DNA of 64,000 bases, from positions 1 to 64,000 of the IMG/VR virus record IMGVR_UViG_3300050343_000268, one strand, 5' to 3'. Within the stretch, counting starts at the first letter, position 1. The number at the start of each line of letters is the position of its first letter. This DNA comes from a virus. The notes beneath the pieces were generated by a model that was given only the letters and a program-made list of their open reading frames with translations, ran no database searches and was not told the origin of the DNA. The position numbers were made by a program, and so were the translations under genes. Positions 5,352 through 59,975 of this stretch are shown here, piece after piece.

Positions 5352-6544
5352 TGGTCAAGATGACAGGAAAACTTGCACGGTTTAAAGACGCTTTTGATGA
5401 TGCCTATGGAGAAGGTCGTGAAGAGTGGACTAGATCTTTCCGTCAAGGGAGAAAGGCTGAGGGATTAGCTGAGAACGCGCCTCGCATGACCGAGATGACC
5501 GGTGCCTATCCAACAGGCATTCGCCTTGCAGAAGTCTTCCAGGATGCAGTTGGTCGTGGTGTAACTCCCCAAGAAGCTGCTCGTAGGCAGATAAGAACGG
5601 ACTTAGGTATTGGAACCAAAGAAGGCTTTGTTGACCGTGCTGGTCAGTTAGTAGGTACAGCAGCTGCAGACCTGACCCAAGACAACACCAGGAACTTCTA
5701 TTGGCTAATGAACGCTGCTCAGGCAACGGGCAACGTCATAGCTGAATCCGCTATGGGCAGTAAGCGGTTAGGTAACCCAAAGCTATATGGAAAGTCTCAG
5801 ATCAGGGACGATAAAGGACTGCCTTACAGCATTAAGAATAAGGATGACGTTGAAGTTGCTATCGCAAAAGGCTATCTAGATCCGAACGGCAATCCAACCA
5901 AGGGAGTGTCTATCGGAGACACAGATGACAAACTTCTGGAGAAGCGGAACTTTGAGCCTGGGCACCTAGCTGCATTGATGATTCCTACTGGAGTTGCCAT
6001 CAATACAGGCTTAGGATTGATGTCTCCATTCGGTGGAGCCGAGGGTTACTGGGCAGCGCTTCCGAGTGCCGAAGATCCAACTGTTACTGACAACGTCTTA
6101 GGTGAAGTAGCTCTAAAATATTTCATGGGTAAAACAGGCAACCTATTGCCGTATGACGAGTTCTCAAAAGTAAGGCCTGACGTAAGTCCAGAAGAGTATG
6201 GGAAATACCAGGGTTGGAAATACAGAAGGGGTGAAGACTGGAATCCCCTAGATGACGGACAAACCAGTATGGGTGCTGGACTCATCAGAACAACGACGGA
6301 AGGAATACATGGTCCAGAGCTTCAGTTCATGGGACGTAGCCTCCCAGTCACCACCGGTATTGTTCCTTACCTTGGAGCGCTTGCAGGAGGCGTTGCTGGC
6401 GTACGTAGTAGCAGACCAATTCGTGGTGGAATGGTAGGCGGGTTGGGTGGACTAGCTGCAGGTCAATTGGTTGGTCAATTACTTGAAGGTGAACGTCGTC
6501 GAAGAAATGCTATAGACAACGAATCGTTAAATCCTCAGTATTGA
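5351..6544 (+). CDS. Putative internal virion protein with C-terminal glycine zipper
   Basis: 397-aa ORF; GALAGGVAG and GGLGGLAAG segments. Confidence 0.6.
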   Translation: MVKMTGKLARFKDAFDDAYGEGREEWTRSFRQGRKAEGLAENAPRMTEMTGAYPTGIRLAEVFQDAVGRGVTPQEAARRQIRTDLGIGTKEGFVDRAGQLVGTAAADLTQDNTRNFYWLMNAAQATGNVIAESAMGSKRLGNPKLYGKSQIRDDKGLPYSIKNKDDVEVAIAKGYLDPNGNPTKGVSIGDTDDKLLEKRNFEPGHLAALMIPTGVAINTGLGLMSPFGGAEGYWAALPSAEDPTVTDNVLGEVALKYFMGKTGNLLPYDEFSKVRPDVSPEEYGKYQGWKYRRGEDWNPLDDGQTSMGAGLIRTTTEGIHGPELQFMGRSLPVTTGIVPYLGALAGGVAGVRSSRPIRGGMVGGLGGLAAGQLVGQLLEGERRRRNAIDNESLNPQY

Positions 6545-6574
6545 TAAACTATAGAAACATATATAAGAAAATCC

Positions 6575-6973
6575 ATGAGATTTGCTGCTGGAGGAAATAC
6601 AGGTGCTGCAATTGCTAACATTCTGAATAAAGATGGTGTCGATTATTCAGCATTAGGTGCTAGGCAAATAGGAGCACAGGCGCAAGAGTTTGTTGACACT
6701 ATTAATTCAAATCTTATGGTTGGAGGAGCTAACTTAGATGCAGCTGCCAGAATTGGAGCGGCAGAACATTGGAAAGATGTTCAAGGTGAAGTGGCTCAGA
6801 ATCAAGCTAATTCGAACCTTCTAGGATCAGCAATCGGTGGGGCAGGCCAAATAGGTTTATCTGCAATTTCCAGATTCGGCGGTGGTGGTGGTGGTGGATT
6901 TAATGGATCTTGGAACAGTGCAGCCGAAAGAGGAAGTTTTGGAATCGGAAGTGCTGCTCTTAGAGGCTTTTAA
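6575..6973 (+). CDS. Ala/Gly-rich putative pilot/ejection protein
   Basis: N-terminus resembles that of 8928-9905 (VDYSxLG); starts MRFAAG. Confidence 0.55.
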   Translation: MRFAAGGNTGAAIANILNKDGVDYSALGARQIGAQAQEFVDTINSNLMVGGANLDAAARIGAAEHWKDVQGEVAQNQANSNLLGSAIGGAGQIGLSAISRFGGGGGGGFNGSWNSAAERGSFGIGSAALRGF

Positions 6974-40553: not shown

Positions 40554-40742
40554 ATGGCTTGTAAAAAATCTGAATTTGTTACTGCTGTCAACAGCTATGC
40601 CGCTGCTCGTACAACAGGTGATGTTAATTTACAACGGCTTTCGGGAGCATTGCTAGAGCAGCTCCTCAATACCCTTGAATTTGCAGAAGAAGTAGTCGAA
40701 GGTGAAACAGAAGTGAGTGAATCGGAAGTTGTTCCTGACTAA
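40554..40742 (+). CDS. Small hypothetical protein
   Basis: 62-aa ORF; TATACT box upstream. Confidence 0.6.
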   Translation: MACKKSEFVTAVNSYAAARTTGDVNLQRLSGALLEQLLNTLEFAEEVVEGETEVSESEVVPD

Positions 40743-41200
40743 CTAGTTGCTAATTTAACTTCAGCATCTCGCCTTTTAACAAGGCCCAACAATGGGCCGG
40801 TATTCCCATTAACCCATTTTGGGAATTCTTCCTGAAAACACAATGCTTTCTTCTCGCCGTTATTGATACGACGAGTAAAAGTACTGTTTTCTAGTGCATT
40901 ACTGCCAACGTTAAATGCAAAACTTACAATTGCATCAAATTCATGTTGAGTTAGAACAGGTAAAATGATCTTGACGACCTGCTCTTCAAACCACATGAGG
41001 TCCTTGCGTAATAACTCTTCTGCATCATCTTCAGTAATTACCTGACCATCAAATACCTGCTGAGTGTGGCCATATCCAATCGTGAGTACTGAACTGGCGC
41101 AATAGTACGCTTTAAGCTCTAAGCCCTCAAAAGACTTGATAAGGTCAACACCAGCTTGTGATGTGCGGGTAGGCTCAACCGAATGAGCTCCCGCCTTTAC
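40739..41200 (-). CDS. GH24 lysozyme domain, reached by -1 frameshift from the upstream peptidase gene
   Basis: Frame is open from 41200: TSQAGVDLIKSFEGLELKAY...TIGYGHT...FDAIVSFAFNVG...GLVKRRDAE; no ATG before the catalytic Glu. Confidence 0.85.
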   Translation of the reverse strand, partial: VKAGAHSVEPTRTSQAGVDLIKSFEGLELKAYYCASSVLTIGYGHTQQVFDGQVITEDDAEELLRKDLMWFEEQVVKIILPVLTQHEFDAIVSFAFNVGSNALENSTFTRRINNGEKKALCFQEEFPKWVNGNTGPLLGLVKRRDAEVKLATS

Positions 41201-41206
41201 TTTTTT
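41165..41206 (-). other. Programmed -1 ribosomal frameshift signal
   Basis: In-frame A AAA AAG directly before TAA, then hairpin GCGGG-A-GCTCA-TTCGGT-TGAGC-CTA-CCCGC. Confidence 0.75.
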
Positions 41207-41907
41207 AGATTTGGATCACTAACATCCATATACCATCCACTACCTTCACCTTCAACAATCCAACGTGGGTTAAAGTTTTTGTAGCTGTATTTTATCCCTG
41301 CACCATCAAGGTTATTTGTATAGCCACCACTGCGAAGTGATGCTTCTCCATTTGGATCATTGACCACCCACACTTCGTTGTCGTCGTCATAGCCAATAAT
41401 TACTGAGTAATGACCAGACCCTGAAGGTGAGCTAACAGGCCCCTCAAATAACCAACCTACTGCTACTGGTTTTCCAGCATCAATAGCGTCTTTCAAGGCT
41501 CGTGTCGTACCGTCAAACTTAAACTCTGCATCAAGATTAAGAGACTTCAGAGTGTTAACTTGTGATTGCGCATTCGTTGTATCTCCATATTGCTTACGGA
41601 TCGCGTTGTAATCGTCATCATTATCTATCTTTCCGTAGTACATTGCAACCATTGCCATGCTACTTGAAAAGCATTCTCTAAATCCCGATCCCGATGAATT
41701 ATCATTTTGACTTTGAAATGGCACACTTAATATGGTGCTGCTTGTAACCCCAGGCTTGTCACGGTAGGTCTTAACCCAAGCGTGTTGATCATCTTTAAGC
41801 ACATCTCGCATCTGCTCGTACAAAACTTGCACACCAGCCTTTTGCTGAGGTTCTGATTTGTAATACTTGAAAAAGTTTTCAAACTCTTTGAATGATAGAT
41901 TAGCCAT
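41197..41907 (-). CDS. Endolysin-like peptidase C39-like protein
   Basis: LSVPFQSQND...RECFSSS...GHYSVIIGY...VNDPNG (Cys-His-Asp triad). Confidence 0.8.
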   Translation of the reverse strand: MANLSFKEFENFFKYYKSEPQQKAGVQVLYEQMRDVLKDDQHAWVKTYRDKPGVTSSTILSVPFQSQNDNSSGSGFRECFSSSMAMVAMYYGKIDNDDDYNAIRKQYGDTTNAQSQVNTLKSLNLDAEFKFDGTTRALKDAIDAGKPVAVGWLFEGPVSSPSGSGHYSVIIGYDDDNEVWVVNDPNGEASLRSGGYTNNLDGAGIKYSYKNFNPRWIVEGEGSGWYMDVSDPNLKK

Positions 41908-44526: not shown

Positions 44527-44970
44527 ATGTCAAATTTTTCTAGCTGGTTTTCTCGTTGTGCAGGTGACTGGAAATCTTATAGGCGATACCTAACATTACC
44601 ATCGTACAAAGATGATTCATACAACACTGAGTTTACTATTAAAGTCGAAGACGACAAAGTAAATATCAGTTGGAATGGTGAAGTGAGTTCAGGTAATATG
44701 AACCTGACAATTGATGGGGATCTATTGCATCGTGATATTGGTTACTTTACTGATGACCCTAACGACAGCAAACTGACGTTGCTTGATGAAGACACTGTCG
44801 TTTTACACAGCGCATATGACGGTATGGAATTCCGTGAAGAGATTCGCCTGCTTGATGATGACAAGCATCGTCTTCGACAGACAGTTGGATATCGCAAAGG
44901 GAAGCCTTTTTTAGTAGGCCAGTACTGGGAGGAACGTCAAACACCTGTGGAAAAAATTGGCTTTGAATGA
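44527..44970 (+). CDS. CpcS/CpeS-family (S/V-type) phycobiliprotein lyase
   Basis: WF..CAGDWKSYRRY N-terminus and FREEIRLL...RLRQT...GQYWEER C-terminus. Confidence 0.75.
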   Translation: MSNFSSWFSRCAGDWKSYRRYLTLPSYKDDSYNTEFTIKVEDDKVNISWNGEVSSGNMNLTIDGDLLHRDIGYFTDDPNDSKLTLLDEDTVVLHSAYDGMEFREEIRLLDDDKHRLRQTVGYRKGKPFLVGQYWEERQTPVEKIGFE

Positions 44971-45136: not shown

Positions 45137-45943
45137 ATGAAAGTCTCTCAATTGCTCTTAAGAGTTCGCGATGAACAAGACATTCGCGATTCAACATTTA
45201 AATGCTGGCTTAAAGCAGCTAAGCCTATAGCTGATGTTGAGGTCAACGACATCGACAGGGCTACAGTTACTCGTTATTGGCAGTCTCAGCTCAAGCCAAT
45301 CGGTCCCCTCTCTCCTGAGACACTGCGCCGCCGCCTAAGCCTGCTGACAGGCATCTGGAATATGGGAATAGAAGATGAATTTATTGATGTGCCTAACTAC
45401 TGGAGTAAGGCAAGCAAGAAGATAAAACTAAAAACTGATTACAACCGCTTAGGTAAAGAGTATCTAGTCAGACCCTTTAGTTTCTACGGGAGGTATCAGG
45501 CAGATCCCATCTTCCTAGCCATCTGGTTTCATGGCTTCCGCATCGGTGAAATTGCAGGTCTGTTGCCAAACGAAATACGGTTCGACAATCAGATCCCATA
45601 CTTCAGAATTAGAGATAATAGCCTTAGGAATATCAAGCCCGGTGCTCAGAGAGACCTGCCTATTCATCCTGAGTTCTATCCACATGTCAATCGTCTTAGA
45701 ACTGACTACAGCCAAAACCCAGGCAAGAACTGGAGTCAGATGTTTAGCGAGCGATTGGAGCTACCAAAGGGTGAAGCAGCACACTCACTGCGTCACAACT
45801 TCATTACTCGCTGTAGGTCAGCAGAGCTGCAGGACTCGATGATCTCTAAGATCGTAGGCCACAAAATAAATGGAATGACAGCACGATACGGAACTTGGAC
45901 TTTGGAGGATAAGTTAAAAGCAATTCGTCAAGTAAGGCAGTAG
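45137..45943 (+). CDS. int: Tyrosine recombinase/integrase
   Basis: GFRIGEI (R), IK, HSLRH, VGH, RY catalytic set. Confidence 0.9.
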   Translation: MKVSQLLLRVRDEQDIRDSTFKCWLKAAKPIADVEVNDIDRATVTRYWQSQLKPIGPLSPETLRRRLSLLTGIWNMGIEDEFIDVPNYWSKASKKIKLKTDYNRLGKEYLVRPFSFYGRYQADPIFLAIWFHGFRIGEIAGLLPNEIRFDNQIPYFRIRDNSLRNIKPGAQRDLPIHPEFYPHVNRLRTDYSQNPGKNWSQMFSERLELPKGEAAHSLRHNFITRCRSAELQDSMISKIVGHKINGMTARYGTWTLEDKLKAIRQVRQ

Positions 45944-46097: not shown

Positions 46098-46486
46098 ATG
46101 GCTATTCTTGAATCAGCAGTATTTTGGATCATCTTGGCGGCAGCTAGTGAAATCATTGCTCTAAGTCCCCTGAAAGACAATTCAATCATTCAGCTTGTAT
46201 TTCATACATTGAAATCACTTAAGCCCGGAAAAAAGATCTAAACATCCCTGACGATGGTCAGTGGATATTTACGTTTGACACTCTAGGTAATGCTGAACGC
46301 TTAAAGCGTCTAATACAAGCACGTAAGTTTTATGCAACGCTTCCTCACAAGCTAGATGCTGCTGAGGAAAAATGGCTTGCGTCTCAACCAACAGACAAAA
46401 CAGTAGAGTTTACAGAAATTACTGATGGAGAAACACCTTTAGGTGGAGAAATGCGTCTGTCATTAAAGACTAAAAACAAGGATTAG
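46098..46486 (+). CDS. Small membrane (holin-like) protein 46098-46241 with -1 frameshift extension to 46486 (not in ORF track)
   Basis: MAILESAVFWIILAAASEIIALSPLKDNSIIQLVF...PGKKI*; A AAA AAG at 46229-46235; -1 frame open for 83 codons. Confidence 0.7.
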
Positions 46487-46540: not shown

Positions 46541-46936
46541 ATGGGATACGCAGAAGATTGGGGAGAACTTATGTTCAATCTCCAGTGCCTTTCAAAAGGC
46601 TCCGCCAAGCGACAGTTTAGAGAAGACATTCGTTACAGTTTTGGAGGACTATGTGCTTATTGCCGAATAAGAAGAGCTGACACTCTTGATCACTTGAAAC
46701 CACGCTGCAAAGGTGGAAGTAATTTAAGGTCAAATTTAGTTCCTTGTTGCAGAGAATGCAATCACTCCAAAGGAAGTGAATTATGGCTACCCTGGTATCA
46801 ACGACAGCTTTTTTATAATGCTGTTGCACAAGAGCTTATTGAAGAATGGATTGCTAACAAGCGTATTGACTTAGATGATTATGACGAACGAATTGACAAT
46901 CGAACAGAGGTTTGCCTTACAGCGAGCACGATATGA
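46541..46936 (+). CDS. HNH endonuclease
   Basis: CAYC...TLDHLKPR.KGG....NLVPCCRECNHSK. Confidence 0.9.
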   Translation: MGYAEDWGELMFNLQCLSKGSAKRQFREDIRYSFGGLCAYCRIRRADTLDHLKPRCKGGSNLRSNLVPCCRECNHSKGSELWLPWYQRQLFYNAVAQELIEEWIANKRIDLDDYDERIDNRTEVCLTASTI

Positions 46937-47207
46937 AGTGGCTCGAATGAGTAGAGGTGCACTAGAGAAAACCGCTGTACGGTTGCTCAAGTCACGCATG
47001 GAACAGAAGAATGGAGTTCAAGAGTTGCTAATGGGCAATGGAATCCTATTTAAGGTGCAAGAGCTTCAACAAGGTATGCCTGAAATTATTTCTGAAGATA
47101 CTTTCATCGAGCTATTAAAAATGCAAGATGATATATTACCTGCTGACATCATGGATGAGGGTTGGGAGATTGATGATATTGATGATGACGGTCTCACTAT
47201 GATGTGA
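46875..47207 (+). CDS. nblA: NblA-like phycobilisome degradation adaptor with acidic C-terminal extension
   Basis: ELTIEQRFAL......VARMSRGAL.....L...M......QELL follows the NblA pattern L-S-L-E-Q-x-F...V..MS. Confidence 0.65.
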   Translation: MIMTNELTIEQRFALQRARYEVARMSRGALEKTAVRLLKSRMEQKNGVQELLMGNGILFKVQELQQGMPEIISEDTFIELLKMQDDILPADIMDEGWEIDDIDDDGLTMM

Positions 47208-47241: not shown

Positions 47242-47469
47242 ATGGAATACATAATCATTGGGCCTATCTTGGCACTTCTTGTGAGCATGAAGTTTACAGA
47301 TTATAAATCCAAAGAAGCGGAAGCTAGACTCACCACTTTGGAAAATAAAATTGAAATTGTAACAAGTGTCTTAGAGCAGTCTGAAGCTGATGCACCTAAG
47401 AAAACCATGATGATTGTCGCTCCTGTCGCTAAGGCAGTAAAAGACCTTCAGTCAGCTATTGGTGTTTGA
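47242..47469 (+). CDS. Small protein with N-terminal membrane anchor and coiled coil
   Basis: YIIIGPILALLVSM followed by a heptad helix. Confidence 0.6.
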   Translation: MEYIIIGPILALLVSMKFTDYKSKEAEARLTTLENKIEIVTSVLEQSEADAPKKTMMIVAPVAKAVKDLQSAIGV

Positions 47470-59663: not shown

Positions 59664-59975
59664 ATGCGATTAGCAGGTATATTTGCCGAACAATTAGGCA
59701 CCCCTCTCCATGTATCAGCGGCAGATGCACCAATTAATTATGGAGTAATTGGAAGTGAAATAGGTCACACAGCTGGGGTACTCGATGGATTAAAAGAATA
59801 TGGCAATGCACTATTGTCTCCTTTTACTGGTGGGTTTAACCAACCATTAGGAGAAACAGATCTCTATGGACGCAACCCAGATGGTTCTGGAAGATCAATG
59901 GGTGAAGCAATGGAATACATAGAAAAAGGTGTTAGAAACCGTGAGGATGCCGTAAGAATGCTGTTAAAAAAGTAA
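59664..59975 (+). CDS. Hypothetical protein starting MRLAG
   Basis: Isolated + strand gene within the - strand block. Confidence 0.55.
   Translation: MRLAGIFAEQLGTPLHVSAADAPINYGVIGSEIGHTAGVLDGLKEYGNALLSPFTGGFNQPLGETDLYGRNPDGSGRSMGEAMEYIEKGVRNREDAVRMLLKK

What the first reader, a model, noticed from the sequence alone, without database searches (positions are those of the whole stretch)
46098..46486. Second A_AAA_AAG frameshift, in an unannotated holin-like gene
Seen: a 47-aa hydrophobic ORF ends GGA AAA AAG ATC TAA, followed by hairpin ATCC-CTGAC-GATG-GTCAG-T-GGAT. The -1 frame stays open for 83 codons (DLNIPDDGQW...GGEMRLSLKTKNKD) with no early ATG and fills an otherwise empty gap. Inference: short and long forms of a membrane protein (holin/antiholin-like). 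Together with the endolysin site, this suggests lysis tuned by one shared recoding signal, possibly sensitive to host tRNA-Lys status. This is the best candidate for an undescribed system in the window.
Basis: partly seen in the sequence, partly recalled or inferred. Interest (0 to 1): 0.8.

Follow-up and report, generated by a model that had tools for sequence, protein, structure and literature searches.

The report
Conserved frameshift extends cyanophage membrane protein
A tiny membrane-protein gene of marine cyanophages ends in a conserved slippery sequence, so some ribosomes probably slip back one base and add a roughly 80-residue tail, giving a short and a long form of a protein that usually sits beside the cell-bursting enzyme; no paper found describes this.

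Summary
A 47-aa one-helix ORF (46098-46241) ends GGA AAA AAG ATC TAA. The -1 frame then runs 83 codons to 46486 with no usable start codon.

The heptamer alone occurs at chance frequency in the window, but comparison with relatives is decisive:
- Of 137 distinct homologous loci, 124 carry an in-phase slippery heptamer 0-1 codons before the stop. It is A_AAA_AAG in nearly all, G_GGA_AAG in two and A_AAA_AAA in one. All 124 have a 47-92-codon -1 ORF.
- The 13 loci without a heptamer also lack the extension.
- The loci include Synechococcus siphoviruses S-CBS1, S-CBS3 and KBS-S-2A, T7-like S-B28 and 7B11-B, S-EIVl, and IMG/VR contigs.
- The -1 ORF evolves as coding sequence. It has no conserved start, and its conserved residues begin at the slip site.
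- Four independent metagenome assemblies show the same A6 run.

This is most likely a programmed -1 ribosomal frameshift producing 47-aa and 129-aa isoforms.

In 27 of 49 relatives the next gene is an endolysin, so a role in lysis is likely, but holin/antiholin function is only inferred. I found no paper describing this. GenBank records leave the extension unannotated or give it arbitrary starts.

The parts
46098..46241 (+). Zero-frame ORF, 47 aa plus TAA: the short isoform. It has one transmembrane helix (about residues 7-25), then an amphipathic, Lys-rich C-terminal helix.
   Evidence: Full-length match to phrog_22542 (E 2.6e-23, profile positions 4-48 of 49). Kyte-Doolittle mean 1.99 for residues 7-25. 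AlphaFold2 helices 7-22 and 27-41 in the natural fusion P0003.
46229..46235 (+). Slippery heptamer A_AAA_AAG in X_XXY_YYZ phase (GG[A AAA AAG]), the proposed -1 tandem-slippage site.
   Evidence: In the first sample (73 heptamer-bearing loci) the third base of the preceding codon is A in 71, although seven different amino acids occur there; third-position A is 14.9% elsewhere in the ORF. The first Lys codon is AAA in 71 of 71, whereas Lys codons elsewhere are 71% AAG. The heptamer is conserved in 124 of 137 distinct loci overall.
46239..46241 (+). Zero-frame stop TAA, one sense codon after the heptamer.
   Evidence: Among relatives, 69 of 73 have exactly one sense codon and 4 of 73 have none between heptamer and stop.
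46235..46486 (+). -1 frame extension, 83 codons plus TAG. Fused to residues 1-46 it gives a 129-aa long isoform.
   Evidence: Homologous -1 ORFs of 47-92 codons follow the heptamer in all 124 loci. Differences by codon position are 26/14/61%. There is no conserved start codon. The model shows a long helix with pLDDT about 95.
46244..46266 (+). Local hairpin (9 bp with one bulge, GATG loop), 8 nt after the heptamer. It is present in the window but not conserved in the family.
   Evidence: MFE -13.3, z -2.6. RNAalifold finds no consensus structure. 60.9% of cells are paired against 61.1% in shuffles.
47242..47469 (+). 75-aa ORF with an N-terminal transmembrane helix and a coiled coil. It may be the counterpart of the roughly 81-aa 'MIE...' TM+coiled-coil gene that precedes the small ORF in sipho- and podo-cyanophages. 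This assignment is weak.
   Evidence: Weak hits to holin phrog_1296 (E 0.011) and DUF7365. No significant pairwise similarity to the upstream genes of relatives; the resemblance is in architecture only.
40742..41907 (-). Endolysin of the same phage. A C39-like peptidase ORF ends CTA AAA AAG TAA (heptamer at 41206-41200), and the -1 frame continues into a GH24-type lysozyme domain with no start codon.
   Evidence: Matches to phrog_10051 and phrog_7 (endolysin). phrog_3617 covers both halves. Two close relatives keep GCA AAA AAG TAA plus a 154-codon -1 frame.

Best explanation
The site is a programmed -1 ribosomal frameshift.

Mechanism:
- Most ribosomes translating the small gene stop at TAA (46239-46241) and release a 47-aa single-pass membrane protein.
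- On A_AAA_AAG (46229-46235) a fraction of ribosomes slip back one base, with the tRNAs on the GGA and AAA... codons re-pairing (P-site AAA, A-site AAG, both tRNA-Lys).
- These ribosomes bypass the stop and add 83 residues, giving a 129-aa long isoform with the same N-terminal membrane anchor.
- The signal appears to be the heptamer plus the zero-frame stop 0-1 codons downstream. No conserved hairpin or upstream Shine-Dalgarno-like element was found.

Shown here:
- The layout, its family-wide conservation, and the nucleotide-level constraint on the heptamer.
- Coding-type selection on the -1 ORF and the absence of a start codon for it.

Inferred topology:
- The N-terminus is acidic and the post-helix segment is Lys-rich.
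- By the positive-inside rule the protein is N-out/C-in, so the extension (a short helix, a roughly 32-residue helix and a conserved C-terminal h-x-h-x-A-P-W-like tail) lies in the cytoplasm.

Inferred function (about 40-50% odds):
- The gene belongs to the cyanophage lysis module. It lies just upstream of the endolysin in S-CBS1-like siphoviruses, and after the tail fibre and before the small terminase in T7-like cyanophages, which is the position of holin gene 17.5 in T7.
- The frameshift would set a fixed short:long ratio. The long form would co-assemble with the short form through the shared helix and modulate membrane-hole formation or its timing, in the manner of an antiholin.
For: 1. 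The sequence is as described.
2. The same layout occurs in named phages.
   - KBS-S-2A: GCA AAA AAG AGC TGA, with an unannotated homologous -1 ORF.
   - S-CBS1 and S-CBS3.
   - 7B11-B and S-B28.
   - S-EIVl, with the alternative canonical heptamer G_GGA_AAG.
3. IMG/VR samples give 137 distinct loci. 124 have both heptamer and extension, 13 have neither, and none has only one of the two.
4. The heptamer is constrained at nucleotide level beyond amino-acid constraint.
5. In the first sample (76 distinct loci) the -1 frame is open for 52-91 codons and the +1 frame for only 1-33. The first ATG/GTG/TTG falls anywhere from codon 0 to 80, and is absent in several loci.
6. Conserved residues (L-x-I-P-x-D-G-x-W) start 1-3 codons after the heptamer. 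Indels are whole codons.
7. Codon-position differences are 26/14/61% in the -1 frame.
8. Four independent metagenome assemblies carry the identical A6 run with no indel.
9. Clean full-length proteins P0003, P0006 and P0023 in public data equal the predicted trans-frame product.
10. For a lysis role: 27 of 49 downstream neighbours are 350-400-aa endolysins. An approximately 81-aa TM+coiled-coil gene precedes the small ORF in both sipho- and podoviruses.
Against: - There is no protein-level or ribosome-profiling evidence, and no RNA run holding the stretch was listed.
- No conserved stimulatory RNA structure and no upstream GGAG/GAGG in 60 distinct upstream 22-mers was found, so efficiency may be low.
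- Transcriptional slippage on the A6 run would give the same product and is not excluded for the A-run loci.
- In the window the gene is not next to the endolysin. It sits between an integrase and an HNH gene.
- No holin, antiholin or spanin family is matched in Pfam, NCBIfam or PHROGs, where it is listed as 'unknown function'.
- One clade (the Oinezvirus-like MedDCM-OCT-S37-C6 group) has only the short form, so the extension is dispensable in some phages.
Confidence: 0.8

Rival explanations
1. Transcriptional slippage. RNA polymerase occasionally adds one A in the A6 run, producing an mRNA in which the two ORFs are in frame. The protein outcome is the same (47-aa and 129-aa forms) but the mechanism differs.
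For: The slip site is a homopolymer of 6-7 A in almost all loci. The third-base A of the preceding codon also lengthens the run. An mRNA with A7 would encode exactly the fused proteins seen as P0003, P0006 and P0023.
Against: Two distinct loci, S-EIVl and L017, use G_GGA_AAG, which has only three A's yet is a classical ribosomal heptamer. The final G is conserved: AAG in 70 of 71 A-run loci, with one AAA. A longer A run would favour polymerase slippage, whereas A_AAA_AAG is the optimal bacterial ribosomal heptamer (established from dnaX and IS elements). Runs of 6 are short for efficient bacterial transcriptional slippage (general knowledge, not tested here).
Confidence: 0.08
2. The two ORFs are separate cistrons. 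The downstream ORF is translated on its own from a non-canonical or internal start codon, or by termination-reinitiation, as current GenBank annotations imply (S-CBS1 gp23 from TTG, S-CBS3 gp22 from ATG, S-EIVl from GTG).
For: Annotated CDSs exist with such starts. Some subgroups share an ATG at codon 17. The -1 Leu codon (CTR/TTR) overlaps the zero-frame stop.
Against: The position of the first ATG/GTG/TTG is scattered from codon 0 to 80, and none exists in several loci. Protein conservation begins upstream of every annotated start, directly at the heptamer. CTA and TTA at the overlap cannot initiate translation. This model does not explain the nucleotide-level conservation of the heptamer, or its perfect co-occurrence with the extension.
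Confidence: 0.06
3. Artefact or decay. A homopolymer sequencing or assembly error, or a recent inactivating frameshift, split a single 129-aa gene.
For: A few fused proteins exist in public data. Homopolymers are prone to sequencing errors.
Against: The same A6 run with no indel is found in four independent assemblies. The split layout occurs in 124 distinct loci, including seven isolate genomes sequenced by different groups. Most junction-spanning database proteins are visibly garbled by several frame errors. An IMG/VR scan for A7 variants returned only frameshift-type loci whose preceding codon ends in AA.
Confidence: 0.01

Closest known systems
E. coli dnaX tau/gamma and IS3-family -1 frameshift sites (A_AAA_AAG)
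   Same: The heptamer is identical, used in X_XXY_YYZ phase in a bacterial translation system. Tandem slippage on tRNA-Lys is the presumed mechanism.
   Different: dnaX and IS3 sites use an upstream Shine-Dalgarno-like element and a downstream stem-loop or pseudoknot. Neither is conserved here. In dnaX the shift truncates the protein, whereas here it extends it.
Phage lambda G/GT tail assembly chaperone frameshift (G_GGA_AAG) and its relatives in tailed phages
   Same: It is a phage-encoded -1 frameshift near the end of a short ORF. It adds a C-terminal domain at a fixed low ratio and needs little beyond the heptamer. The alternative heptamer seen in S-EIVl and L017 is the one lambda uses.
   Different: The gene family and process differ: a small membrane protein in or near lysis cassettes, not a tail chaperone between the tail tube and tape-measure genes. 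The slip site lies only 0-1 codons from the stop.
T7 gene 10A/10B capsid frameshift
   Same: A -1 shift a few codons before the stop gives a minor C-terminally extended isoform. In T7-like cyanophages the present gene sits in the late region.
   Different: The T7 case involves a structural protein and a different heptamer. The short product here is a 47-aa membrane peptide.
Lambda S105/S107 and phage 21 S68/S71 holin/antiholin pairs (dual-start motif)
   Same: One lysis-cassette gene for a small membrane protein yields two isoforms that share transmembrane segments at a ratio fixed by translation. This is the functional analogy proposed.
   Different: In those pairs the isoforms differ by 2-3 N-terminal residues made by alternative initiation. 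Here they differ by a roughly 80-residue C-terminal domain made by recoding. There is no sequence similarity, and holin activity is untested.
PHROG families phrog_22542 (short ORF) and phrog_3316 / annotated 'hypothetical proteins' (S-CBS1 gp22/gp23, S-CBS3 gp21/gp22, KBS-S-2A CPKG_00007)
   Same: These are the same genes. The window ORF is a full-length member of phrog_22542.
   Different: The databases list them as separate proteins of unknown function, or leave the -1 ORF unannotated. None records a frameshift.

Membership tests
Programmed -1 ribosomal frameshift site (tandem-slippage type) | Canonical X_XXY_YYZ heptamer in the correct phase of the upstream ORF | tested here: met
   A_AAA_AAG lies at 46229-46235 in phase. 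The phase and heptamer are conserved in 124 of 137 distinct loci, with G_GGA_AAG and A_AAA_AAA as the only variants.
Programmed -1 ribosomal frameshift site (tandem-slippage type) | -1 ORF continues from the slip site, is conserved as coding sequence, and lacks its own conserved initiation site | tested here: met
   The -1 frame is open for 47-92 codons, against 1-33 in the +1 frame of the first sample. Codon-position differences are 26/14/61%. Start codons are scattered or absent. Homology begins at the slip site.
Programmed -1 ribosomal frameshift site (tandem-slippage type) | Downstream stimulatory RNA structure (hairpin or pseudoknot 5-9 nt after the heptamer) | tested here: not met
   A hairpin exists in the window. 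There is no consensus structure and no covariation or excess pairing. Mean z over 71 loci is only -0.73. This feature is not obligatory for bacterial or phage sites such as lambda G/GT.
Programmed -1 ribosomal frameshift site (tandem-slippage type) | Upstream Shine-Dalgarno-like stimulator | tested here: not met
   No GGAG or GAGG occurs in the 22 nt upstream in any of 60 distinct sequences.
Programmed -1 ribosomal frameshift site (tandem-slippage type) | Trans-frame protein actually produced | not testable with these tools
   No RNA or proteome data are available. Fused proteins in databases could be natural fusions or homopolymer errors.
Holin | Small protein with at least one transmembrane helix and a charged C-terminus | tested here: met
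   Kyte-Doolittle mean 1.99 for residues 7-25. AlphaFold2 helix 7-22. Lys-rich C-terminus. At 47 aa it is shorter than typical holins.
Holin | Encoded next to the endolysin in a lysis cassette | tested here: inconclusive
   Met in relatives: 27 of 49 downstream neighbours are endolysins, including S-CBS1, S-CBS3 and KBS-S-2A. Not met in the window, where the neighbours are an integrase and an HNH gene and the endolysin is about 4 kb away on the other strand.
Holin | Sequence membership in a described holin family | tested here: not met
   No Pfam or NCBIfam hit. phrog_22542 and phrog_15106 are listed as 'unknown function'. The atlas returns only unnamed 48-51-aa clusters.
Holin | Forms lethal membrane lesions that release endolysin | not testable with these tools
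   Needs expression and complementation assays.
Spanin (i-spanin type) | N-in/C-out topology with a periplasmic coiled-coil domain and a partner outer-membrane lipoprotein | tested here: not met
   The charge distribution (acidic N-terminus, Lys-rich segment after the helix) predicts N-out/C-in. No lipobox Cys is present in the small ORF or the extension.

The most novel reading that the evidence does not exclude
Marine cyanophages time lysis with a recoding-based holin/antiholin switch. The frameshift frequency at A_AAA_AAG sets the ratio of a 47-aa pore-modulating peptide to its 129-aa tethered-domain isoform. In this phage the same signal also sets the ratio of a peptidase-only endolysin to a peptidase-lysozyme endolysin. 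Lysis timing and strength would then be coupled to the host's translational state, for example tRNA-Lys supply or modification under nutrient limitation.
Probability: 0.2. Interest if true: 0.85.

Novelty: new variant of a known kind. Interest (0 to 1): 0.68.

Why it matters
Programmed frameshifts in tailed phages are well known for tail chaperones and some capsid genes, but not for small membrane proteins of lysis modules. In those modules, isoform pairs are classically made by dual start codons.

This site is conserved across at least three cyanophage morphotype or lineage groups and more than 120 distinct environmental genomes. It is still missing or mis-annotated in reference records:
- S-CBS1 gp23 and S-CBS3 gp22 are given arbitrary starts.
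- The -1 ORF is unannotated in KBS-S-2A, S-B28 and 7B11-B.

The finding matters in four ways:
- It corrects the annotation.
- It defines a new recoded gene family.
- It gives a minimal signal (heptamer plus adjacent stop, no conserved structure) that can be tested in cyanobacterial translation.
- It offers a concrete way into the almost uncharacterised lysis machinery of marine Synechococcus phages, which control a major fraction of ocean primary producers.

Tried and rejected
- Megablast of the region against isolate phages found no match. tblastn of a 453-aa window ORF also found no match, so the phage itself has no close cultured relative.
- Heptamer count in the window is at chance level, so it is no evidence by itself.
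- The hairpin as a conserved stimulator is rejected.
- An upstream SD-like stimulator was not found.
- Pfam, NCBIfam, PDB sequence profile and ESM Atlas searches for the short ORF, the extension and the fusion gave nothing informative.
- Complex prediction of the extension (alignment A7) with the upstream roughly 83-aa TM+coiled-coil protein (A9) gave no support (score 0.00). This is not evidence either way.
- Fold search was not run. The AlphaFold2 model is a string of helices with pTM 0.37, so matches would be meaningless.
- The look-up of sequencing runs listed no RNA holder, so expression and transcriptional slippage could not be examined.
- An IMG/VR pattern scan for A7 in-frame variants returned only frameshift-type loci.
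- Most junction-spanning proteins in the 1.84-billion representative library are garbled by multiple frame errors.
- The i-spanin reading was considered and rejected on predicted topology and the absence of a lipoprotein partner.
- Homology between window ORF 47242-47469 and the upstream 81-aa gene of relatives is not demonstrable.

Full report
**1. What is in the window**

ORF 46098..46241 (+) encodes 47 residues and ends CCC GGA AAA AAG ATC TAA.
- The last A of GGA plus AAA AAG forms A_AAA_AAG in X_XXY_YYZ phase (46229-46235).
- Read one base back, the frame continues DLNIPDDGQW... for 83 codons to TAG at 46484-46486.
- The first ATG/GTG/TTG in that frame is at 46451.
- A 9-bp hairpin lies at 46244-46266, 8 nt after the heptamer (MFE -13.3, z -2.6).

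The heptamer by itself means nothing: there are 24 copies in the window against 21.4 expected. Only two copies sit at the end of a long ORF with a long open -1 frame, this one and 41200-41206 on the minus strand.

**2. Both ORFs are real and conserved**

- The 47-aa ORF is a full-length member of phrog_22542, a 49-position profile (E 2.6e-23).
- tblastn finds the short ORF in Synechococcus phages S-CBS1, S-CBS3, KBS-S-2A, 7B11-B, WH11-B, S-B28 and S-EIVl, and in the uncultured phage MedDCM-OCT-S37-C6.
- The -1 ORF has a homologue in KBS-S-2A directly after that phage's copy of the small ORF, in an unannotated gap.

**3. The layout is conserved in isolate genomes**

| Phage | End of small ORF | -1 frame |
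|---|---|---|
| KBS-S-2A | GCA AAA AAG AGC TGA | ELIPPDGRW..., no start codon for 52 codons |
| S-CBS1 | CAA AAA AAG GAC TGA | GLIPADGRW...; gp23 is annotated from a TTG inside the conserved region |
| S-CBS3 | GGA AAA AAG CTC TAG | open from the slip site |
| 7B11-B, S-B28 (T7-like) | CCA AAA AAG TAA | 52 and 62 codons, differing by a whole-codon insertion; unannotated |
| S-EIVl | CCG GGA AAG CGC TGA (G_GGA_AAG, the lambda G/GT heptamer) | 90 codons, homologous to the S-CBS3 extension |
| MedDCM-OCT-S37-C6 | CCA AAG AAA CAG GCC TAG, no slippery site | no extension |

**4. Large samples**

Two IMG/VR scans were run, one seeded on the family alignment and one on the T7-like member. With the isolates they give 137 distinct sequences.
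- 124 carry an in-phase heptamer: A_AAA_AAG in nearly all, G_GGA_AAG in two, A_AAA_AAA in one. All 124 have a -1 ORF of 47-92 codons (median 79).
- In the first sample (76 distinct loci) the -1 frame is open for 52-91 codons and the +1 frame closes after 1-33.
- 13 lack the heptamer and all of them lack the extension. Most belong to the MedDCM-OCT-S37-C6-like clade, where the two Lys codons are the non-slippery AAG AAA.
- No locus has one feature without the other.

Nucleotide-level constraint at the site, measured in the first sample of 73 heptamer-bearing loci:
- The codon before Lys-Lys encodes G, A, P, S, Q, E or T, yet its third base is A in 71 of 73. It is G in the two G_GGA_AAG loci. 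Third positions elsewhere in the ORF are only 14.9% A.
- The first Lys is AAA in 71 of 71, while other Lys codons are 71% AAG.
- One (69 loci) or zero (4 loci) sense codons separate the heptamer from the stop.

**5. The -1 ORF is coding but has no start of its own**

- Among 134 sequence pairs with 75-97% nucleotide identity, differences fall 26/14/61% on codon positions 1/2/3 of the -1 frame.
- Indels between the stop and the conserved I-P-x-D-G-x-W block are multiples of three.
- The first ATG/GTG/TTG lies anywhere from codon 0 to codon 80, and is absent in several loci.
- Conserved residues begin 1-3 codons after the heptamer.

**6. Not an error**

- Contigs from four independent studies cover the site with no inserted or deleted letter.
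- A scan of IMG/VR for A7 versions returned four loci. All are still frameshift-type, because the preceding codon ends in AA.
- Public protein sets contain a few clean in-frame proteins (P0003, 137 aa; P0006, 138 aa; P0023, 131 aa) that equal the predicted trans-frame product (...KPGKK-ELNNIPADGKW...).
- Each of these is a singleton.
- Most other junction-spanning representatives are visibly scrambled by several frame errors.
- In-frame fusion is therefore rare at best, and the split layout is the norm.

**7. Ribosomal or transcriptional slippage**

Three observations favour ribosomal tandem slippage over polymerase stuttering:
- G_GGA_AAG loci exist.
- The final G is conserved, where a longer A run would serve polymerase slippage better.
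- The X_XXY_YYZ phase is strict.

Polymerase stuttering remains a minor possibility for the A-run loci.

**8. Stimulators**

- The window hairpin is not conserved. RNAalifold finds no consensus structure.
- Mean folding z-score over 71 loci is -0.73.
- No GGAG or GAGG lies within 22 nt upstream.
- The conserved signal is the heptamer and the adjacent zero-frame stop.

**9. What the protein is**

- The short form has one hydrophobic helix (residues 7-25, Kyte-Doolittle mean 1.99) with an invariant Ser-Glu pair. An amphipathic Lys-rich helix follows.
- The acidic N-terminus and basic post-helix segment predict N-out/C-in, which places the extension in the cytoplasm. This is an inference from the positive-inside rule.
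- AlphaFold2 on the natural fusion P0003 with a 97-row alignment gives helices 7-22, 27-41, 53-60 and 66-97. The last has pLDDT about 95. The C-terminal tail is low-confidence. Mean pLDDT is 72.9 and pTM 0.37.
- The extension occurs in several sequence types that share a central L-P-x-K-L-D...W block and a C-terminal h-x-h-x-[AS]-P-[WF] motif.
- No known family matches.

**10. Context**

- Of 49 loci with a callable downstream gene, 27 have a 350-400-aa endolysin (Phage_lysozyme, Peptidase_M15_3, Glucosaminidase or C39-like domains). 13 have an HNH endonuclease, as in the window.
- Upstream, 12 of 56 have an integrase, as in the window.
- The siphovirus type has an approximately 83-aa 'MIE...' TM+coiled-coil protein, phrog_26178, with weak similarity to a 'hemolysin' PHROG.
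- T7-like members have an analogous 81-aa 'MIE...' protein, phrog_12220.
- In T7-like members the pair lies after the tail-fibre gene and before the small terminase. That is the position of holin gene 17.5 in T7 (established gene order, from my own knowledge).
- The association with lysis is therefore strong in relatives.
- In the window the gene follows the integrase. It is separated from a 75-aa TM+coiled-coil ORF (47242-47469) by HNH and NblA-like genes.
- The endolysin lies at 40742-41907 on the other strand.

**11. The second site**

- The window's endolysin is a C39-like peptidase ORF ending CTA AAA AAG TAA. Its -1 frame continues into a GH24-type lysozyme with no start codon.
- Two close relatives keep GCA AAA AAG TAA and a 154-codon -1 frame. 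More distant peptidases stand alone.
- phrog_3617 spans both halves.
That the two sites are co-regulated is speculation.

**12. Literature**

- Full-text searches found nothing combining cyanophage, holin or antiholin, the names of these phages, and frameshifting.
- The PRFect paper does not mention holins, endolysins or cyanophages.
- The P2-like phage paper treats frameshifting (tail genes) and antiholins as separate topics.
- On my own knowledge, lysis-protein isoforms are classically made by dual starts (lambda S105/S107, phage 21 S68/S71), not by recoding.

**13. Verdict**

This is a genuine, widely conserved, previously unannotated programmed -1 frameshift (about 0.8-0.9 probability). 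It produces short and long isoforms of a small membrane protein belonging to cyanophage lysis modules. The role as a holin or lysis-timing regulator is inferred at about 0.4-0.5 probability.

Noticed in passing
window 40742-41907 (-), heptamer 41200-41206: The endolysin is split in the same way. A C39-like peptidase ORF ends CTA AAA AAG TAA, and the -1 frame runs into a GH24-type lysozyme domain with no start codon. Two close IMG/VR relatives (L178, L179) keep the heptamer with a different preceding codon (GCA). phrog_3617 covers both halves.
   Followed up: partly
L002 (S-CBS1 gp22/gp23), L003 (S-CBS3 gp21/gp22), L001 (KBS-S-2A 6418-6622), L005/L006 (7B11-B, S-B28), L007 (S-EIVl): Reference GenBank records either leave the -1 ORF unannotated or start it at an arbitrary internal TTG, ATG or GTG downstream of conserved residues. 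These annotations probably need a joined frameshifted CDS.
   Followed up: yes
L127, L130, L138, L147-L152, L155, L157, L173; L004: A T7-like clade (MedDCM-OCT-S37-C6 / Oinezvirus-like) has the small ORF ending KPKKQA* with the Lys-Lys encoded AAG AAA. It has no extension, so it acts as a natural 'slip-dead, short-only' control.
   Followed up: partly
L045:2246-2494, L001:2579-2821, L005:1769-2011: An approximately 81-83-aa gene starting MIE..., with an N-terminal transmembrane helix and a coiled coil (phrog_26178 in siphoviruses, phrog_12220 in T7-like phages), immediately precedes the small ORF in both lineages. It is a candidate holin or partner of unknown function.
   Followed up: partly
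window 59664-59975 (+): A 103-aa ORF also ends with in-phase A_AAA_AAG followed directly by a stop, but its -1 frame is open for only 5 codons. This is probably coincidence, and the ORF lies among minus-strand genes.
   Followed up: no
window 46875-47207 and 46541-46936: An NblA-like ORF (Pfam NblA, E 5.7e-7) overlaps the 3' end of an HNH endonuclease gene. A CpeS-like lyase lies at 44527-44970 and an integrase at 45137-45943. Together these mark the window as a cyanophage carrying phycobilisome-related auxiliary genes.
   Followed up: no
window 46226: A synonymous C>T change (CCC to CCT, the Pro codon two codons before the heptamer's Lys-Lys) is seen in three of the four other metagenome assemblies. 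The heptamer itself is invariant.
   Followed up: no
proteins P0055, P0070, P0071, P0075, P0084, P0092, P0104: Public protein clusters for this locus include sequences scrambled by several frame errors, probably from error-prone assemblies. They mimic in-frame fusions in length-based searches.
   Followed up: partly
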